A stretch of DNA of 64,000 nucleotides from Escherichia coli (GTDB taxonomy: Bacteria; Pseudomonadota; Gammaproteobacteria; Enterobacterales; Enterobacteriaceae). The DNA is taken from assembly GCF_024298765.1 (NCBI RefSeq), contig NZ_CP101210.1. One strand, 5' to 3'. Shown here in pieces: positions 51,272 through 57,200 of the stretch. Every line of letters begins with the position of its first letter. Within the stretch, counting starts at the first letter, position 1. Made by a program: the position numbers.

Positions 51272-54200
51272 GGAATGTTCATCTTGTGCTGTTGCACGGA
51301 TGGGGACTGAATGCCGAAGTGTGGCGTTGCATTGACGAGGAACTGAGCTCGCATTTTACGCTGCACCTTGTTGACCTGCCCGGCTTCGGGCGTAGCCGGG
51401 GATTTGGTGCGATGTCACTTGCTGATATGGCCGAAGCCGTGCTGCGACAGGCACCTGATAAAGCCATTTGGTTAGGCTGGAGTCTGGGCGGGCTGGTGGC
51501 AAGCCAGATTGCGTTAACCCATCCCGAGCGTGTTCAGGCGCTGGTCACCGTGGCGTCGTCGCCTTGTTTTAGTGCTCGTGACGAGTGGCCGGGGATAAAA
51601 CCGGACGTGCTGGCGGGATTTCAGCAGCAACTCAGTGATGATTTTCAGCGTACAGTGGAACGGTTCCTTGCGTTACAAACCATGGGTACTGAAACGGCGC
51701 GCCAGGATGCGCGGGCGCTGAAGAAAACCGTTCTGGCGTTACCGATGCCGGAGGTTGACGTGCTTAATGGCGGGCTGGAAATCCTGAAAACGGTCGATCT
51801 CCGTCAGCCGCTGCAAAACGTGTCCATGCCGTTTTTGCGATTGTATGGCTATCTCGATGGTCTGGTGCCGCGCAAAGTGGTGCCGATGCTGGATAAACTC
51901 TGGCCGCACAGCGAGTCGTACATTTTCGCCAAAGCGGCCCATGCGCCGTTTATTTCGCATCCGGTCGAGTTTCGTCACGTGCTGGTGGCGTTGAAGCAGA
52001 GGGTGTAGGTGGCTTTTGAAATGGCGAGACAGAATTTTACTGACTCGCCGCAGCCAACTCTTCTTCTGACACCCCGGTAAAGCGCATGATGTCCGCAAGA
52101 GGGACTCCGGATTACAGCATTCTTTTGGCGATATCCAGGGCTTCCAGGCGTCGACCCAATAAATAACCAATCAGGTAACTAATAAGATATTCTCTTTCTG
52201 CATCTGTCATTAAAACCATCCTTTACGTTATTGATGATTTATTTCAGCAAGGTCTTCAACCGTCAGGCTGGTAAATCGCAGAACGTCCTCAAGAGAAACT
52301 CCGGCGTCCAGCATGGTTTTGGCAATATTTAGGGCGTTGGTACGTATACCTTTCTGAAACCCTTCCTGCCGCAATCTTTCCGCAATAGTCATTAAGCTCT
52401 CCTTGTGTTTCGGTGAATGTTCGGCAACGCCGTCGATAAAATCGTTAAAACGTACCGCATCGCCGGTTTGCAAGATGTAATTAAACAGCCCTTTGATTTG
52501 TCTGTCATTAGCGTATCCACTACTTAATAAGCAGGCCATTTGCTCTACCAGCCCCATCAGATCGCGTTGACGAATATGTTTTTGAATTAACTCCAGCAGC
52601 GCCATACGTCGGTGCTGCATGATTTCATCATCAGGCATGACGGTGACATCAATCAGCGGAAATGCGGAGGCATAAAGCTGCCTTGCCAGGTTGGGATCGG
52701 CGAAACAATCCAGCCAACACAGCGAATAGGGATAGGGGCTTTCAATACCGTGGTAAAACAACAATGGCACCACCATCGGCAACGTTTTGTATCCGGCATC
52801 CAGGTGATTTTGCATTGCGGCAATAGCGTAACGCATCATGCGAAATGCGATCAGTTTGTTTGAGGTGCTTTGATGTTCAATCAGACAATAGATATATCCC
52901 GGTCCTTGTTCCGTTTTCACCGACCACAGCACGTCGGAATAGCTTTCACGCAGATCGTCATCAATAAAGCTGCTCGACTCCAGCTTGAGGGTTTTCATAT
53001 CACAGAGCGCGTGAATAGGTGCCGGTAAATGGAACGCAAGAAAATCGCGTGCCGTGTCCGGTTGGCGTAAAAAGAGTTTGAATAGTGCATCATGTGGGGT
53101 GGAACTCTGCTTTTTGCTCATGGCGTTCCTTCACCTGTTGTTTGAATGCCGTGACTCTACGCGCCACTCCACACCTGTGCATTAGCGAGTTTTCATCCCT
53201 GCGAGACGCTTTCAGAGGAACTTACGTTGTACTGCAAGGGTTGCATTTTTATGGAAAGCCGTGACTAGTCCTGATATACGTTGACACTTTTCTGTCTGTA
53301 AAACGCCTGATGAACGTCATCGGGTGTTTTGTATTTCAGAGCCAGATGTGGCCGCTCATGGTTATAAATTGCCACGGACTCTTTGACCATTTCCCGGGCC
53401 TGCGCCAGGTCTGCAGGACGCGAGAGTAAAAACTCATTTTTCAGGATACCGTTTATTCGCTCAGCCAGTGCGTTCTGGTAGCAGTCATAACCATCCGTCA
53501 TTGAACAGGTTATTCCATTTCTTTCATGAACTGACTGATAGAGCGCTGAACAGTATTGCAGCCCCCTGTCAGAATGATGCACCAGGGGACTCGTCGTTTT
53601 TCTCAGCCTCAGCGCCTGTCTGAACGCTTTTACCACATTTTCTGTCTGCAGGTTTTCCCCAACATGGTAGCCCATAATTTTTCTGGAGCAGGCATCGGTG
53701 ACCAGACTCAGATAGGCCGTACCATTGCGCAGTGGAAGGTAAGTAATATCGGCGACCCAGACCTGTTCTGGTTCAAGAGCGGTAACCTGTTCAGGGCCTG
53801 GTTTAAGCAGGTTTGGATGTCGGTAGAAGCGATGATGACTGTTGGTAGTTTTGTGATATGCCCGTTTTACTGGCACCAGGAGTCGGTATTCATCGAGCAG
53901 GTTAAACAGGCGGTCTCGCCCGATATTCAGCCTTTTATCGGCCTGAGTGTTCAGCAGATAGTGCAGCTTACGCGCACCGATTCGGGGCTGACGACATCTG
54001 ACACGGGCAACAAAATCAAGAACCTGAGCATGATGTTCCTGCCGTTTTCTGCGCCTTGTGTTGTCCTGATACCATGCCTGTCTGCTGTGTCCCAGGAACA
54101 GACATGCACGCGTCACAGTTATTTTGGGGGCCGGACTTTGCGCGAGGACTTGCCGGGCCGCTTTTTTACGATACTCACCCCGTAATCATTTTTAAGGACA

Positions 54201-57200
54201 TTGATAACTGACTCAAAAAACTCAGCTTTCTGGTTCGCCAGCTCAAGCTGCGCTTCAAGTTCCCTGATTCTTTGCTCGGGTGTGAGCGGGATAGTTGTCT
54301 GAGTCACAGGCAGTTTCCTCTTCACCAGGTCAGGAAGTCCAGGACTCCAGTCAAGCCGGCCATATTTACGTAACCAGACAAGAACGGTGGAGCGCCCCTG
54401 AATGCCATACCGCTGCTGGGCCTGTTTATAGGTCATCTCGCCTTTTTCAACCTGCTCAACAACAGCTATTTTAAAGGATAGAGGATAATCACGTTGGGTG
54501 CGTTTGAACTCAGTCATCATCACGTTCTCCGGATTTAAGTCAGGAACGTGTCAACGCTATTCAGGACGGGTCACCGCACGCAAAAAAGCCCGGATGCAAA
54601 CGCATACCGGGCTTTTCAAAACAGGCGATGGAGTATGGTTAACGCAGCGCCCACCACTCGCGCAGACAGGCTTTGCCTTCCGGGCAGCTTTTACAACTGC
54701 CAGAGAGGCAGCCGTCAGGTTCTTCCTGAATCCGCACGGCTTTGCCCATGCTTTCCAGCTGTTGCAGCATGGCGTTAATCATTGGCTGCGGAGTGTTCAA
54801 TGTCTGGCTTATCTGGGCCGCTTCCATACGGCCCCGTAACGCCAGCAAATCACGCACCTGAATAAGTGAAGCCATTAATGGCAATCACCGGTGGTGCTGG
54901 CTGCGCAGCAACTGCTTACCGACTTGCGGGTTGCCAGCAGTTCGATATCCACCCGGCTACGCGCGCGGCGCAGCAGACCGATAACCACGATGTTAAACAG
55001 GATAACCGCCAGAATGCACACCAGGCTGTAAGTTGGGTGCTGACTGTAGCTGGCGACCTGATAGAACAATGTTGCCAGCGAGTAAGCGATATTCAGCCCC
55101 CACAGGATGGAGAAGCCCATCCAGCCACGGCTTGATTCACGGGCGATGGCTCCCATCACCGAGATACATGGTACATACAGCAGGACGAAAATCAGGTAGC
55201 TGTAAGCTGCTGCTGCGCTACCGAATTTCTGATCCATCACGCCCATCGCCCCGGTCCCCATTTCGCCGTCGCCTTTGCTGGCTTCAATGGGGTTCATCAG
55301 TACGCTAAGGCTGAAGGTGTCTTTCAGGCTCTGCCAGGTTTCATCTATCGCACTGAACAGCTCTTCACCGAGGTTAAATTCCGCCGGATTGAACTCTTCG
55401 TCCTGAATATTTTCTGCGGTGTAGAGGGTGTTGAGCGTACCCACTACCACTTCTTTCGCCATGGCACCTGTAAACAGGCCAACCGTTGCCTGCCAGTTAT
55501 CTTCATGCACGCCAATCGGCTTGAAGACTGGGGTGATCACCCGGCTGACGGAAGCCAGCGCCGAGTCGTTGATGTTATCGACGATTTTCCCGCTCAGAGA
55601 GAAGCTGTTGAAAGCACTCAGGAAAATGCTGACGATGATAATCACTTTACCAGCACGCAGAACGAAGCCTTTCAGACGCTGCCAGGTCTGGATAATCAGG
55701 CTTTTAACGTGTGGTACATGGTAGACCGGCAGCTCCATGACAAACGGCGTCGCTTCACCGCGCATGATGGTGTACTTGAGCATCAGGCCCGTCAGCACCG
55801 CCATTACGATACCCAGCATATACAGCGAGAAGACCGCCAGCGCACCGTTCTGCCCGAAGAAGGCAGCCGCGAATACTGCGAAGATAGCCAGACGTGCGCC
55901 GCAGGACATAAACGGTGCCATCATGATGGTCATCAGGCGTTCACGCGGTGCATCAAGCGTACGTGCGCCCATTACCGATGGTACGTTACAACCGAAGCCG
56001 ACGATCAGCGGTACAAAGGATTTCCCCGGCAAGCCCAGCGCCTGCATCAGGCGGTCCATCACAAACGCCGCACGCGCCATATAGCCGGAGTCCTCAAGGA
56101 AGGAGAGGAACAGGTACATCATGCCGATCTGCGGCACCAGTGGCAGCACGGTGTTAATACCGCCACCCAGGCCCTGGGCGAGGAAGATAGTCAGCCAGTC
56201 CGGGAAGTGGAGCGTGTAGCCAATCCATTGAATACCATGCACAAATAGCGCCACGGAGCCGACGTCAAACAGCGGCTGTAACGCCCCGCCGATGTTGATA
56301 GCCAGCAGGAACATCAGGTACATCACAAAGAGGAAAATCGGCAGACCGAGGAAACGGTTGAGCACGATTTTATCTACCGCAGTGGTGAAACGGCTGGGTT
56401 CTGCCGTCAGGGTGTTGCTTACCACATCACAGATGGCAGCAATGCACTGGTAACGCGCATCGGCAATGTGCAGCGCCGGATCGTCCATCTCATTACGCAG
56501 ACGGGCGAGGGCGGCATCCAGATGCTGCGACGCTTCACCGGCGTAGGCGCGGCTGTAGATATCGCCTTCCAGCATTTGCAGGCCCAGCCAGCGACGTTGT
56601 TTCAGCGGGATGTCGGAAGGCATCACTTTTGCCAGTGAATCTGCTTCGTTGAGTAGCGGCTGTGCGTAATGCACCAGTTCCACATTCTCGTTAGCTTTAT
56701 AGCGATCAATCGCCAGCTTGAGCGCTTCAATACCGCGACCACGGGTTGAAACCAGCGGGATCACCGGGCAGCCAAGACGCGCCGACAGAGCATCAATTTC
56801 AATACGAATATTTTGCTTCTCGGCAATGTCGAGCATGTTCAGTGCCACGATGCAGGGAATGCCGAGTTCCAACAGTTGCAGCGTCAGGTACAGGTTACGC
56901 TCAAGGTTAGACGCATCCACCACGTTAATCAGCAGGTCTGCGTCGCCACTCAAAATGTAGTGACAGGCGATTTGCTCATCGAGCGAGGTCTGCGATGAGA
57001 TGGTGGTCAGAGAATAGGTGCCGGGCAGGTCCACCAGCGTGACCTGATGATCGGTGGTGGAGAATTGCCCTTCTTTACGTTCGACGGTAACGCCAGCCCA
57101 GTTACCTACACGCTGACGTGCGCCAGTGAGCTGGTTAAATAACGTTGTCTTGCCAGAATTTGGATTACCAATTAAGCCAATGGTTAATTTTTTCATTGTT

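What the first reader, a model, noticed from the sequence alone, without database searches (positions are those of the whole stretch)
53262..54573. IS3-family element inserted between the feoC terminator and the rpnA (yhgA) promoter
1312-bp element with 26-bp imperfect terminal inverted repeats (TGAC... termini), 3-bp direct duplication CCG on both flanks, and orfA/orfB with the canonical A AAA AAG -1 frameshift heptamer. The clean duplication suggests a relatively recent simple insertion. It lies ~140 bp upstream of the yhgA start and 13 bp from the feoABC terminator hairpin, so it replaces the native yhgA upstream region and could supply an outward promoter or silence yhgA.
Basis: seen in the sequence. 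Interest (0 to 1): 0.5.

Follow-up and report, generated by a model that had tools for sequence, protein, structure and literature searches.

The report
Terminator-seeking IS3-family insertion sequence
This is a genuine, recently inserted 1.3-kb jumping gene of the IS3 family, ordinary in itself, but it and its relatives almost always land about 14 bases past the hairpin of a gene's transcription stop signal, always facing the same way, and I found no published description of that homing habit.

Summary
Window 53262-54573 is a 1312-bp IS3-family insertion sequence on the minus strand. It has 26-bp imperfect inverted repeats, a 3-bp CCG duplication, and orfA/orfB joined by an A AAA AAG -1 frameshift.

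Removing the element plus one CCG recreates a site that is uninterrupted in 5405 of 5426 complete E. coli genomes. Only 16 genomes carry the element here. It is 100% identical to copies elsewhere, so the insertion is recent.

The suggested effect on rpnA (yhgA) is not supported. All 140 bp between the insertion point and the rpnA start codon are retained, and no outward promoter matches consensus.

The position next to the feoABC terminator is not chance. In 66 independent flanks from many Gammaproteobacteria, the transposase-proximal end (IRL) lies 13-14 nt past a terminator stem (consensus GGC-TTTTTT-N8). The transposase is co-directional with the terminated gene.
- 47 of 56 flanks pass a hairpin plus T-run test, against 1.7% of random positions.
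- Relatives down to about 45% OrfB identity behave the same way.
- IS150 does not.

I found no published description of this targeting for an IS3-family element. Group IIC introns occupy the same niche. The element is ordinary; its targeting rule appears to be new.

The parts
53262..54573 (-). Complete 1312-bp IS3-family insertion sequence (ISSen1/ISAs31-related clade). The transposase reads on the minus strand.
   Evidence: Identical 1312-bp copies occur at other loci.
54548..54573 (-). IRL, the transposase-proximal terminal inverted repeat (TGACCCGTCCTGAATAGCGTTGACAC read on the minus strand).
   Evidence: The 26-mer is 100% conserved in elements that are only 67-87% identical overall.
53262..53287 (-). 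IRR, the distal terminal inverted repeat (plus strand TGACTAGTCCTGATATACGTTGACAC).
   Evidence: 20 of 26 positions match IRL.
53259..53261 (.). Target-site duplication CCG, copy on the rpnA side.
   Evidence: The empty site holds a single CCG.
54574..54576 (.). Target-site duplication CCG, copy on the feoC side.
54119..54523 (-). orfA (134 aa): HTH_28 domain followed by a leucine-zipper-like helix. PGAP starts the CDS at 54520.
54161..54167 (-). A AAA AAG programmed -1 frameshift heptamer, followed by a GC hairpin.
   Evidence: PGAP notes 'programmed frameshift'.
53265..54167 (-). orfB frame (-1 relative to orfA) encoding the DDE catalytic core. In the numbering of the 283-aa orfB product (ORF 53265-54116) the motif is D123, D183, E219 and K226, with 35 residues between D183 and E219.
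54582..54616 (-). feoABC intrinsic terminator, which is the insertion target. On the minus strand it reads AAAA, then the stem-loop (54588-54612), then TTTTTT (54582-54587). It is left intact by the insertion.
   Evidence: The fold is -29 kcal/mol including flanks. The same terminator is present in the empty site of other genomes.
54574..54581 (-). 8-nt spacer between the T-tract and IRL. Its last 3 nt are the duplicated target.
   Evidence: T6 plus 8 nt is the most common spacing.
53122..53261 (-). The 140 nt of the native intergenic region between the insertion point and the rpnA (yhgA) start codon, still attached to rpnA. It holds the only weak promoter-like match, TGCACA-16-TAGAGT.
52228..53121 (-). 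rpnA (yhgA), the downstream neighbour.
   Evidence: (NF007361, 674 bits).
54639..54875 (-). feoC, the upstream neighbour and last gene of feoABC.

Best explanation
The element is an intact, probably active IS3-family insertion sequence of the clade that contains ISAs31 and 'ISSen1-type' elements.

Mechanism of movement (inferred from family knowledge, not shown here): a -1 ribosomal frameshift at A AAA AAG fuses OrfA (HTH plus zipper) to OrfB (DDE core). The fused OrfAB transposase copies the element out as a double-stranded circle and pastes it in with a 3-bp staggered cut.

Target choice (shown by comparison): target choice is not random. The transposition complex integrates 13-14 nt downstream of the 3' base of a GC-rich terminator stem (consensus GGC TTTTTT N8). 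The last 3 nt become the duplication. IRL faces the terminator, so the transposase is co-directional with the terminated gene.

This locus: the element used the feoABC terminator, recently, in the ancestor of one lineage of mostly avian- and livestock-associated E. coli. The terminator and all 140 nt of rpnA-proximal DNA are intact, so the insertion is probably close to neutral for both neighbours.

What is recognised (inferred): I favour direct reading of the duplex stem-end/T-tract junction, by sequence plus A-tract shape (about 0.45), over an extruded or single-stranded hairpin (about 0.25) or a terminating RNA polymerase (about 0.1).

Likely pay-off (inferred): a harmless landing site, and a transposase gene shielded from host transcription and perhaps fed only by terminator read-through.
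For: Identity and anatomy.

Recent simple insertion:
- The exact empty site is present in 5405 of 5426 genomes and the site is occupied in 16.
- The element is 100% identical to copies elsewhere.

Targeting in E. coli: eleven different E. coli sites were read. These are the terminators or hairpins after feoC, proK and its RtT repeat, fur, leuU, aspC, dacB and prophage lom; sites inside F-plasmid trbJ and two other genes; and, for the ~700-genome deletion derivative, one further site after a hairpin. All show a T-rich run starting right after a GC stem, with IRL 14 nt past the stem.

Targeting elsewhere:
- A 24-mer IRL scan recovered 78 loci in Serratia, Pantoea, Erwinia, Tatumella, Klebsiella, Citrobacter, Kluyvera, Alteromonas and gammaproteobacterial MAGs.
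- 47 of 56 unique flanks pass a hairpin plus T-run test, against 86 of 4950 random positions. Fisher p = 7e-69.
- In a logo of 66 unique flanks aligned on the IS boundary, position -15 is C in 56 of 66 and positions -13 to -9 are T in 58-63 of 66.
- The T-run starts 14 nt (35 flanks) or 13 nt (16 flanks) before the IS.

Orientation: of 21 distinct complete copies, a terminator faces IRL in 18 and an inverted terminator faces IRR in 1. 17 of 21 have a perfect 3-bp duplication.

The hairpin matters beyond the linear motif: 46 of 48 occupied motif sites have a hairpin, against 154 of 292 background motif occurrences, p = 7e-10.

Depth of the trait:
- ISAs31 in Aeromonas, a Stutzerimonas copy, the Yersinia enterocolitica 8081 copy after crr, and Pectobacterium and Serratia copies (66-85% amino-acid identity) show it.
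- Metagenomic relatives at 45-49% OrfB identity show it.

Negative control: seven distinct IS150 sites show no terminator on either side.

No replication-strand rule: in strain 14EC020 the proK-site and feoC-site copies, 175 kb apart, have opposite orientations (H4, H27).
Against: - No transposition assay was done, so activity and transposase-directed targeting are inferred from natural copies that have passed through selection.
- About one flank in six fails the hairpin test. Most of these still carry the T-run at the right register. A few have a hairpin at the right distance without a clean T-run, for example L013 and L089.
- The Serratia prophage copy L098 has T6 plus 5 nt and no hairpin.
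- Four of 21 complete copies lack a perfect duplication.
- I could not consult ISfinder or TnPedia, so the element's name and any existing note on its target are unknown.
- IRL flanks of the betaproteobacterial relatives were not recovered.
- No promoter for the transposase was identified.
Confidence: 0.85

Rival explanations
1. Insertion is essentially random. The association with terminators arises only because insertions just past terminators are harmless and survive purifying selection.
For: Natural copies are a selected sample. A preprint reports a general excess of terminator-like sequences just upstream of ISs in several families.
Against: - Selection for harmlessness would allow any intergenic position and both orientations.
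- Observed instead are a fixed 13-14-nt register and an 18-to-1 orientation bias.
- Several insertions disrupt genes, yet still sit at a GGC-T-run motif: trbJ, a P2-type replication gene, an MCP gene and a hypothetical gene.
- IS150 shows no such pattern.
Confidence: 0.03
2. The transposition complex recognises DNA structure or the act of termination, not the duplex sequence. Candidates are an extruded or single-stranded hairpin (as for group IIC introns and IS200/IS605) or an RNA polymerase stalled or releasing at the terminator.
For: - Stems differ completely in sequence between sites while the hairpin is kept.
- The hairpin is enriched beyond the linear motif: 46 of 48 against 154 of 292.
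- Some sites (L013, L089) keep the hairpin and the 14-nt spacing but lack a clean T-run.
- Orientation follows the direction of transcription.
Against: - Stem and loop lengths vary freely; only the stem-end/T-tract junction is in register.
- Several used sites have the GGC-T-run motif with only a marginal hairpin or none (L011, L096, L098).
- Two copies in one replichore have opposite orientations, which argues against a lagging-strand single-strand mechanism.
- IS3-family integration is known to act on duplex DNA (family knowledge).
Confidence: 0.35
3. One reading: the insertion changes rpnA (yhgA) expression, either by separating it from native upstream signals or by supplying an outward promoter from the IS end.
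For: - The element lies 140 nt upstream of rpnA, in the same orientation.
- No terminator-like site is predicted at its distal end on the transposase strand, so some read-through from the transposase gene into rpnA is possible.
Against: - All 140 nt of native DNA between the insertion point and the rpnA start are retained. Upstream of the insertion point, the native intergenic region consists of the feo terminator.
- No sigma-70 consensus match on either strand of 52900-54950.
- My looser scan finds only 8-of-12 matches, and the best one lies inside the retained native DNA.
Confidence: 0.15
4. The terminator-like hairpin is part of the mobile unit and is carried along with the element, rather than being its target.
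For: A hairpin plus T-run is found next to IRL at nearly every copy.
Against: - The hairpins differ in sequence at every site and belong to the upstream host gene (feoC, fur, aspC, tRNA genes).
- The empty feoC-rpnA site in other genomes already contains the terminator.
Confidence: 0.01

Closest known systems
Canonical IS3-family elements (IS911, IS3, IS150)
   Same: - 1.2-1.5 kb in length.
- TG...CA imperfect inverted repeats and a 3-bp duplication.
- orfA (HTH plus zipper) and orfB (rve, DD(35)E) fused by -1 frameshifting on A AAA AAG.
- Presumed copy-out-paste-in transposition through a circle.
   Different: - These elements are not known to home to terminators.
- IS150 OrfB is only 31% identical over the core, and OrfA 26%.
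- Seven IS150 sites show no terminator. They cluster in hok/sok loci instead.
ISAs31 (Aeromonas) and 'ISSen1-type' elements
   Same: - They are the closest named relatives, at 66-69% OrfB identity (PMC5756416).
- 1322 bp, with near-identical inverted-repeat architecture.
- Same T5-6 plus 8-9-nt position after terminators and same 3-bp duplication.
   Different: - Different species of element: about 68% amino-acid identity, with TGTC termini instead of TGAC.
- The papers I could read do not mention a target preference.
IS1397 / ISKpn1 (IS3 family), which insert into REP palindromic units
   Same: They are IS3-family elements with strong specificity for extragenic GC-rich palindromes. The specificity has been attributed to the transposase (PMC1525189).
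   Different: - They insert inside the loop of REP units. This clade inserts 13-14 nt downstream of the stem and needs the adjoining T-rich run.
- Only one of the sites seen here (dacB) is REP-like, and it is used at the same downstream register.
- Sequence relationship was not tested, because no IS1397 sequence was available.
Bacterial class C group II introns
   Same: They insert just after Rho-independent terminators, in the direction of transcription. They read structure more than sequence and are thought to 'hide' there (Robart et al. 2007, as cited in PMC7306698).
   Different: They are retroelements that reverse-splice RNA into DNA. This element is a DDE DNA transposon with a 3-bp staggered cut. 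The shared niche is convergent.
General excess of terminator-like sequences upstream of ISs (bioRxiv 10.1101/2025.07.22.666184)
   Same: It reports terminators immediately upstream of ISs in several families, strongest for IS200/IS605. The authors interpret this as limiting transposase expression.
   Different: It is a family-level statistic within 150 bp. In the passages I read there is no fixed register, no orientation rule, no clade assignment and no mention of this IS3 lineage.

Membership tests
IS3 family | Transposase with an rve / DD(35)E catalytic core | tested here: met
   NCBIfam NF033516 scores 260 bits against a cutoff of 160. Pfam finds rve (4e-21) and rve_3 (2e-19). D123, D183, E219 and K226 align with the IS150 InsK core.
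IS3 family | Two overlapping frames, orfA and orfB, fused by programmed -1 frameshifting on an A6G-type slippery heptamer | tested here: met
   A single A AAA AAG lies in the orfA register at 54167-54161, with a hairpin 3' of it. PGAP annotates a 'programmed frameshift'. Frameshifting itself was not assayed.
IS3 family | Imperfect terminal inverted repeats ending 5'-TG...CA-3' | tested here: met
   The repeats are TGAC...GTCA and match at 20 of 26 positions.
IS3 family | 3-5-bp target duplication and a length of 1.2-1.55 kb | tested here: met
   CCG here, and a perfect 3-bp duplication at 17 of 21 distinct complete copies. Length 1312 bp.
IS3 family | Copy-out-paste-in transposition through a circle with abutted ends | not testable with these tools
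   This needs junction PCR or circle detection. The simulated IRR-NNN-IRL junction gives no clear promoter match.
IS150 subgroup of IS3 | Close relationship of OrfA and OrfB to IS150 InsJ and InsK | tested here: inconclusive
   OrfA has HTH_28, not the Transposase_8 type. Identity to IS150 is only 31% for OrfB and 26% for OrfA. No subgroup reference set was available.
REP-targeting IS3 elements (IS1397/ISKpn1 type) | Insertion inside the loop of REP palindromic units | tested here: not met
   Insertions lie 13-14 nt downstream of the stem, not in the loop. Targets are gene-specific terminators, not REP. The single REP-like site (dacB) follows the same downstream register.
Terminator-homing mobile elements (functional class; so far class C group II introns) | Insertion at a fixed position after an intrinsic terminator, in the direction of transcription, at many unrelated loci | tested here: met
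   47 of 56 flanks against 1.7% of random positions. Register 13-14 nt in 51 of 66 flanks. Orientation 18 to 1.
Terminator-homing mobile elements (functional class; so far class C group II introns) | Retroelement mechanism (ribozyme plus reverse transcriptase) | tested here: not met
   The element encodes only a DDE transposase. No Rfam family reaches its threshold in the region.

The most novel reading that the evidence does not exclude
A deep lineage of IS3-family DDE transposons reaches from Enterobacterales, Aeromonas and Stutzerimonas to metagenomic relatives at about 45% OrfB identity. On this reading, the lineage has evolved transposase-directed homing to intrinsic transcription terminators. 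Integration occurs at a fixed 13-14-nt register and in a single orientation. That would be a DNA-transposon counterpart of class C group II introns, not described before. It would give the element a harmless landing site everywhere, with its transposase expression gated by terminator read-through.
Probability: 0.45. Interest if true: 0.65.

Novelty: new variant of a known kind. Interest (0 to 1): 0.5.

Why it matters
As a single insertion this is routine. It is a lineage marker that leaves feoABC and rpnA structurally intact. In related avian pathogenic strains it has served as one end of a 175-kb chromosomal inversion.

The wider point is the targeting rule. A classical cut-and-paste-type (DDE) transposase picks the stem/T-tract junction of intrinsic terminators, with base-pair register and fixed polarity. 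This would explain how the clade spreads through compact genomes with little damage. It would add a DNA-transposon example to a niche so far credited to group IIC introns. It gives a concrete, mutable target for studying how IS3 transposases choose DNA. It also points to a natural 'safe-harbour' insertion system and a practical cue for annotating terminators and IS boundaries.

Tried and rejected
1. RtT sRNA inside the element. Many hits are annotated 'IS3 family transposase | RtT sRNA'. An Rfam scan of 52000-56000 finds no RtT. The RtT annotation belongs to the proK-downstream repeat that flanks another copy.

2. The sub-threshold Rfam hit Bp2_287 at 54493-54617 (20.6 bits against a gathering score of 70, E = 0.13) is just the feo terminator hairpin. 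I treat it as chance.

3. Acidovorax and Variovorax flanks at first looked like a counter-example, with 1 of 18 showing a terminator. BLAST orientation showed that in those elements, which are about 67% identical, the searched 24-mer sits at the IRR end. Those are therefore IRR flanks and say nothing about IRL targeting.

4. A replication-strand (lagging-strand hairpin) mechanism is rejected. Two copies 175 kb apart in one genome have opposite orientations.

5. An outward or resident sigma-70 promoter was not found by the tool scan. My looser scan gave only weak 8-of-12 matches, including on the simulated circle junction.

6. Naming the element failed. PGAP and the protein databases give only 'IS3 family transposase'. 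Searching papers for the terminal sequences found nothing relevant. ISfinder was not available.

7. Nine literature searches for IS3-family terminator targeting returned only the generic preprint, the REP-targeting work and the group II intron work.

8. The IS1397 and ISKpn1 papers (PMC95333, PMC169884) are not held, so no sequence comparison with IS1397 was possible.

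
Full report
**What is at the coordinates**

Window 53262-54573 is a 1312-bp element. Its ends, TGACTAGTCCTGATATACGTTGACAC and (reverse complement) TGACCCGTCCTGAATAGCGTTGACAC, match at 20 of 26 positions, and at 29 of 40 when extended. It is flanked on both sides by CCG.

On the minus strand it carries orfA (54119-54523, 134 aa) and, in the -1 frame, orfB (53265-54116). The only A AAA AAG in the element sits in the orfA register GT[A AAA AAG] at 54167-54161 and is followed by a GC hairpin.
- orfB scores 260 bits on NCBIfam NF033516, 'IS3 family transposase', against a cutoff of 160.
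- The fused protein has Pfam HTH_28 (17-55), rve (251-348) and rve_3 (336-401).
- Aligned with IS150 InsK it shows the D, D(35)E and K motif.
- RefSeq annotates the same CDS as 'IS3 family transposase, programmed frameshift', WP_085951017.1.

The neighbours are rpnA (52228-53121) and feoC (54639-54875), both on the minus strand. The gap to the rpnA ATG is exactly 140 nt. The gap to the terminator stem is 14 nt.

**Is it a recent, simple insertion?**

I deleted the element and one CCG in silico. The 500-bp product matches many E. coli genomes at 100%. 5405 of 5426 complete genomes have the site uninterrupted.

The occupied configuration (2401 bp across both junctions) is present in only 16 genomes, all at about 100% identity. 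They come mostly from poultry, pigs, a dog and humans.

Full-length copies of the element occur in 250 of 5426 genomes, with 1-5 places each, and 113 places are on plasmids. Many copies are 100% identical to this one. The element is therefore mobile, recently active and not fixed here.

**The lead that changed the picture**

In one search, copies at other loci matched the query for 17-29 bases beyond the feoC-side end. I fetched those loci and oriented them in the transposase direction. Every E. coli copy had IRL preceded by a GC hairpin, a T-rich run and 8 more bases:
- GGGCTTTTTTGCGTGCGG|IS after feoC
- AGGCTTTTTTGCATTTGT|IS after tRNA-Pro (proK) and after its RtT repeat
- TGGCTTTTTTATACAAGG|IS after fur
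- CGTCTTTTTTCGTTTTGT|IS after tRNA-Leu (leuU)
- GGGCTTTTTTATGCGCCT|IS after aspC
- GGGCTTTTTTGTGGGGTG|IS after prophage lom
- AGGCTTATTTGGCATTGG|IS after a REP-like hairpin following dacB
- GGGGCTTTTTTATCCCGCC|IS inside F-plasmid trbJ
- GGGCTTTTATT...|IS at each of two further sites inside genes

Each complete copy has a 3-bp duplication, except the leuU copy (TGT/TGG).

**Generality and statistics**

An exact scan of one genome per species with the 24-nt IRL terminus returned 78 loci. They come from Serratia, Pantoea, Erwinia, Tatumella, Klebsiella, Citrobacter, Kluyvera, Alteromonas and gammaproteobacterial MAGs, and from Acidovorax and Variovorax.

The interior sequences show at least six different element species, 74-87% identical to this one, that share the identical IRL.
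- Of 56 unique non-betaproteobacterial flanks, 47 pass a test for a hairpin of at most -6 kcal/mol abutting a run of at least four T ending within 14 nt of the IS. Among random positions in the same DNA, 86 of 4950 pass. Fisher p = 7e-69.
- In a logo of 66 unique flanks aligned on the IS boundary, -17 and -16 are G or C, -15 is C in 56 of 66, and -13 to -9 are T in 58-63 of 66. There is an A-rich block at -39 to -32.
- The T-run starts 14 nt (35 flanks) or 13 nt (16 flanks) before the IS.
- Stem and loop lengths vary. The only fixed distance is from the stem's 3' base.
- Among 21 distinct complete copies, a terminator faces IRL in 18 and an inverted terminator faces IRR in 1. 17 have a perfect 3-bp duplication.
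- Given the linear motif [GC]C-T5+, occupied sites have a hairpin in 46 of 48 cases, against 154 of 292 background occurrences, p = 7e-10.

The apparent exception, the Acidovorax and Variovorax flanks without terminators, dissolved on inspection. In those elements, about 67% identical, the searched 24-mer lies at the IRR end, so the flanks are distal ones.

**How deep the trait goes**

The closest named relatives are ISAs31 and 'ISSen1-type' elements, at 66-69% OrfB identity (PMC5756416).
- ISAs31 copies in Aeromonas salmonicida and A. veronii sit T5-6 plus 8-9 nt after a terminator. Most of them have a clean 3-bp duplication.
- So does a Stutzerimonas copy after a ferredoxin gene.
- So do the Yersinia enterocolitica 8081 copy after crr and a Pectobacterium copy.
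- A Serratia prophage copy sits at T6 plus 5 nt with no hairpin.

A full-library search found the next OrfB clusters at 45-50% identity. Three metagenomic copies from these clusters retain upstream flank.
- L108 is preceded by a clear terminator.
- L110 is also preceded by a clear terminator. It sits at stem plus 13 nt with an ATG duplication.
- L107 has a T-run at the same 12-nt spacing as L108, but only a weak hairpin.
- All three have related ends (TGTCT(A/T)GTCCTGA...).

As a negative control, seven distinct IS150 sites in E. coli show no terminator on either side.

**Mechanism**

Shown by comparison:
- The element's boundaries.
- The 3-bp stagger.
- The register and the polarity.
- Independence from the particular gene.
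- The terminator belongs to the host, because the empty site has it.

Inferred from IS3-family knowledge:
- Frameshift-made OrfAB.
- A circle intermediate.
- Integration into duplex DNA.

What is recognised is open. Selection alone cannot give a fixed register, a single orientation, or hits at the same motif inside genes.

A lagging-strand single-strand mechanism is unlikely. The proK-site and feoC-site copies in strain 14EC020 are 175 kb apart and oppositely oriented (H4, H27). Both positions lie in the same replichore, going by my own knowledge of the K-12 map.

I favour duplex reading of the GC-stem-end/T-tract junction, by sequence and A-tract geometry. An extruded hairpin or a terminating polymerase is not excluded.

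No sigma-70-like promoter is detectable in IRL or at the simulated circle junction. That makes terminator read-through from the upstream host gene a plausible low-level source of transposase. This is inference, in line with the interpretation in bioRxiv 10.1101/2025.07.22.666184.

**Consequences at this locus**

The feoABC terminator is untouched. It comprises the stem-loop 54588-54612, folding at -29 kcal/mol with flanks, and the T6 run at 54582-54587.

rpnA keeps all 140 nt that lie between the insertion point and its start codon. These include the only weak promoter-like match, TGCACA-16-TAGAGT.

Read-through from the transposase gene cannot be excluded without expression data.

**Comparison with what is known**

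The element meets every testable defining feature of the IS3 family. Its subgroup is undetermined: HTH_28-type OrfA, and 31% and 26% identity to the IS150 proteins.

It works like the REP-targeting IS3 members IS1397 and ISKpn1 in choosing extragenic palindromes (PMC1525189). It fails their defining feature, insertion in the REP loop.

Functionally it parallels class C group II introns, which insert after Rho-independent terminators (Robart 2007, via PMC7306698). It does so by an unrelated mechanism.

A recent preprint reports a generic excess of terminators within 150 bp upstream of ISs. In the passages I read it gives no register, polarity or clade.

None of the nine literature searches found a description of this targeting for an IS3-family element. 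ISfinder and TnPedia could not be consulted.

**Verdict**

The finding is a real and correctly described, but in itself ordinary, recent IS3-family insertion. Its regulatory interpretation is weak.

The noteworthy result is the clade-wide, register-exact and orientation-specific homing to intrinsic terminators. On the evidence available this is a new variant of a known kind. Interest 0.5.

Noticed in passing
Window 53262-54573 and its counterpart copy; L100 and L101 (NZ_CP126952.1): In APEC O78:H4 strain E12049 the gene order is eptB-proK-RtT-IS-rpnA-bioH at one place and feoABC-IS-RtT-dppA at the other. This is a roughly 175-kb inversion by recombination between the feoC-site copy and the oppositely oriented proK-site copy. 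Strain CT282 shows the same broken junction at the rpnA side.
   Followed up: yes
L099 (E. coli ATCC 25922, NZ_CP032085.1 3875270-3875884): About 700 E. coli genomes carry a 622-bp internally deleted relative of the element (89.5% identity, orfA remnant only). It lies near an Alw26I-family methyltransferase gene. It too sits T7 plus 7 nt after a hairpin.
   Followed up: partly
L002, L085 and L086 (proK region of E. coli): The 'RtT sRNA' annotated next to many copies is a repeat downstream of tRNA-Pro. It ends in the same terminator as the tRNA. The IS is found after the tRNA in some strains and after the RtT repeat in others, so the same target sequence is used at two repeat positions.
   Followed up: partly
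L010, L028, L030, L031 and L084: Solo IRL ends or very short IRL-containing remnants, possibly MITE-like derivatives, lie directly after terminators in Citrobacter, Kluyvera, Enterobacteriaceae LSJC7 and a gammaproteobacterial MAG. They have no transposase behind them.
   Followed up: no
L007-L084 (IRL termini): The 26-nt IRL TGACCCGTCCTGAATAGCGTTGACAC is 100% conserved between elements that are only 67-87% identical overall. IRR consistently differs at positions 5-6 and 13-17. Acidovorax and Variovorax relatives carry the same 26-mer at their IRR end.
   Followed up: partly
L105 and L111-L118 (IS150 control sites): Across the nine IS150 loci read, IS150 lies next to four different chromosomal hok-family genes and a plasmid hok/mok locus. 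It sits between the arms of a GCCCC...GGGGC-type inverted repeat at most of these. IS150 thus has its own hairpin-associated hot spot, different from terminators.
   Followed up: no
Window 22000-32000: A low-GC island (38-44% against about 52%) lies between glgP (20201-22648) and glpD (32618-34138). It encodes a chaperone-usher fimbrial operon: a major subunit, two chaperones, an usher, a minor subunit and an adhesin-like protein.
   Followed up: partly
Window 5795-5859 (+): The RyhB sRNA gene (Rfam RF00057, 83 bits) is the only RNA family above threshold in the window. No tRNA genes are present.
   Followed up: no
L004 (leuU site, E. coli MDR_56); L103 and L104 (A. veronii): A few copies lack a perfect duplication (TGT/TGG at leuU). 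Two Aeromonas copies share the same distal flank. This suggests IS-IS recombination or end mis-assignment at those loci.
   Followed up: no
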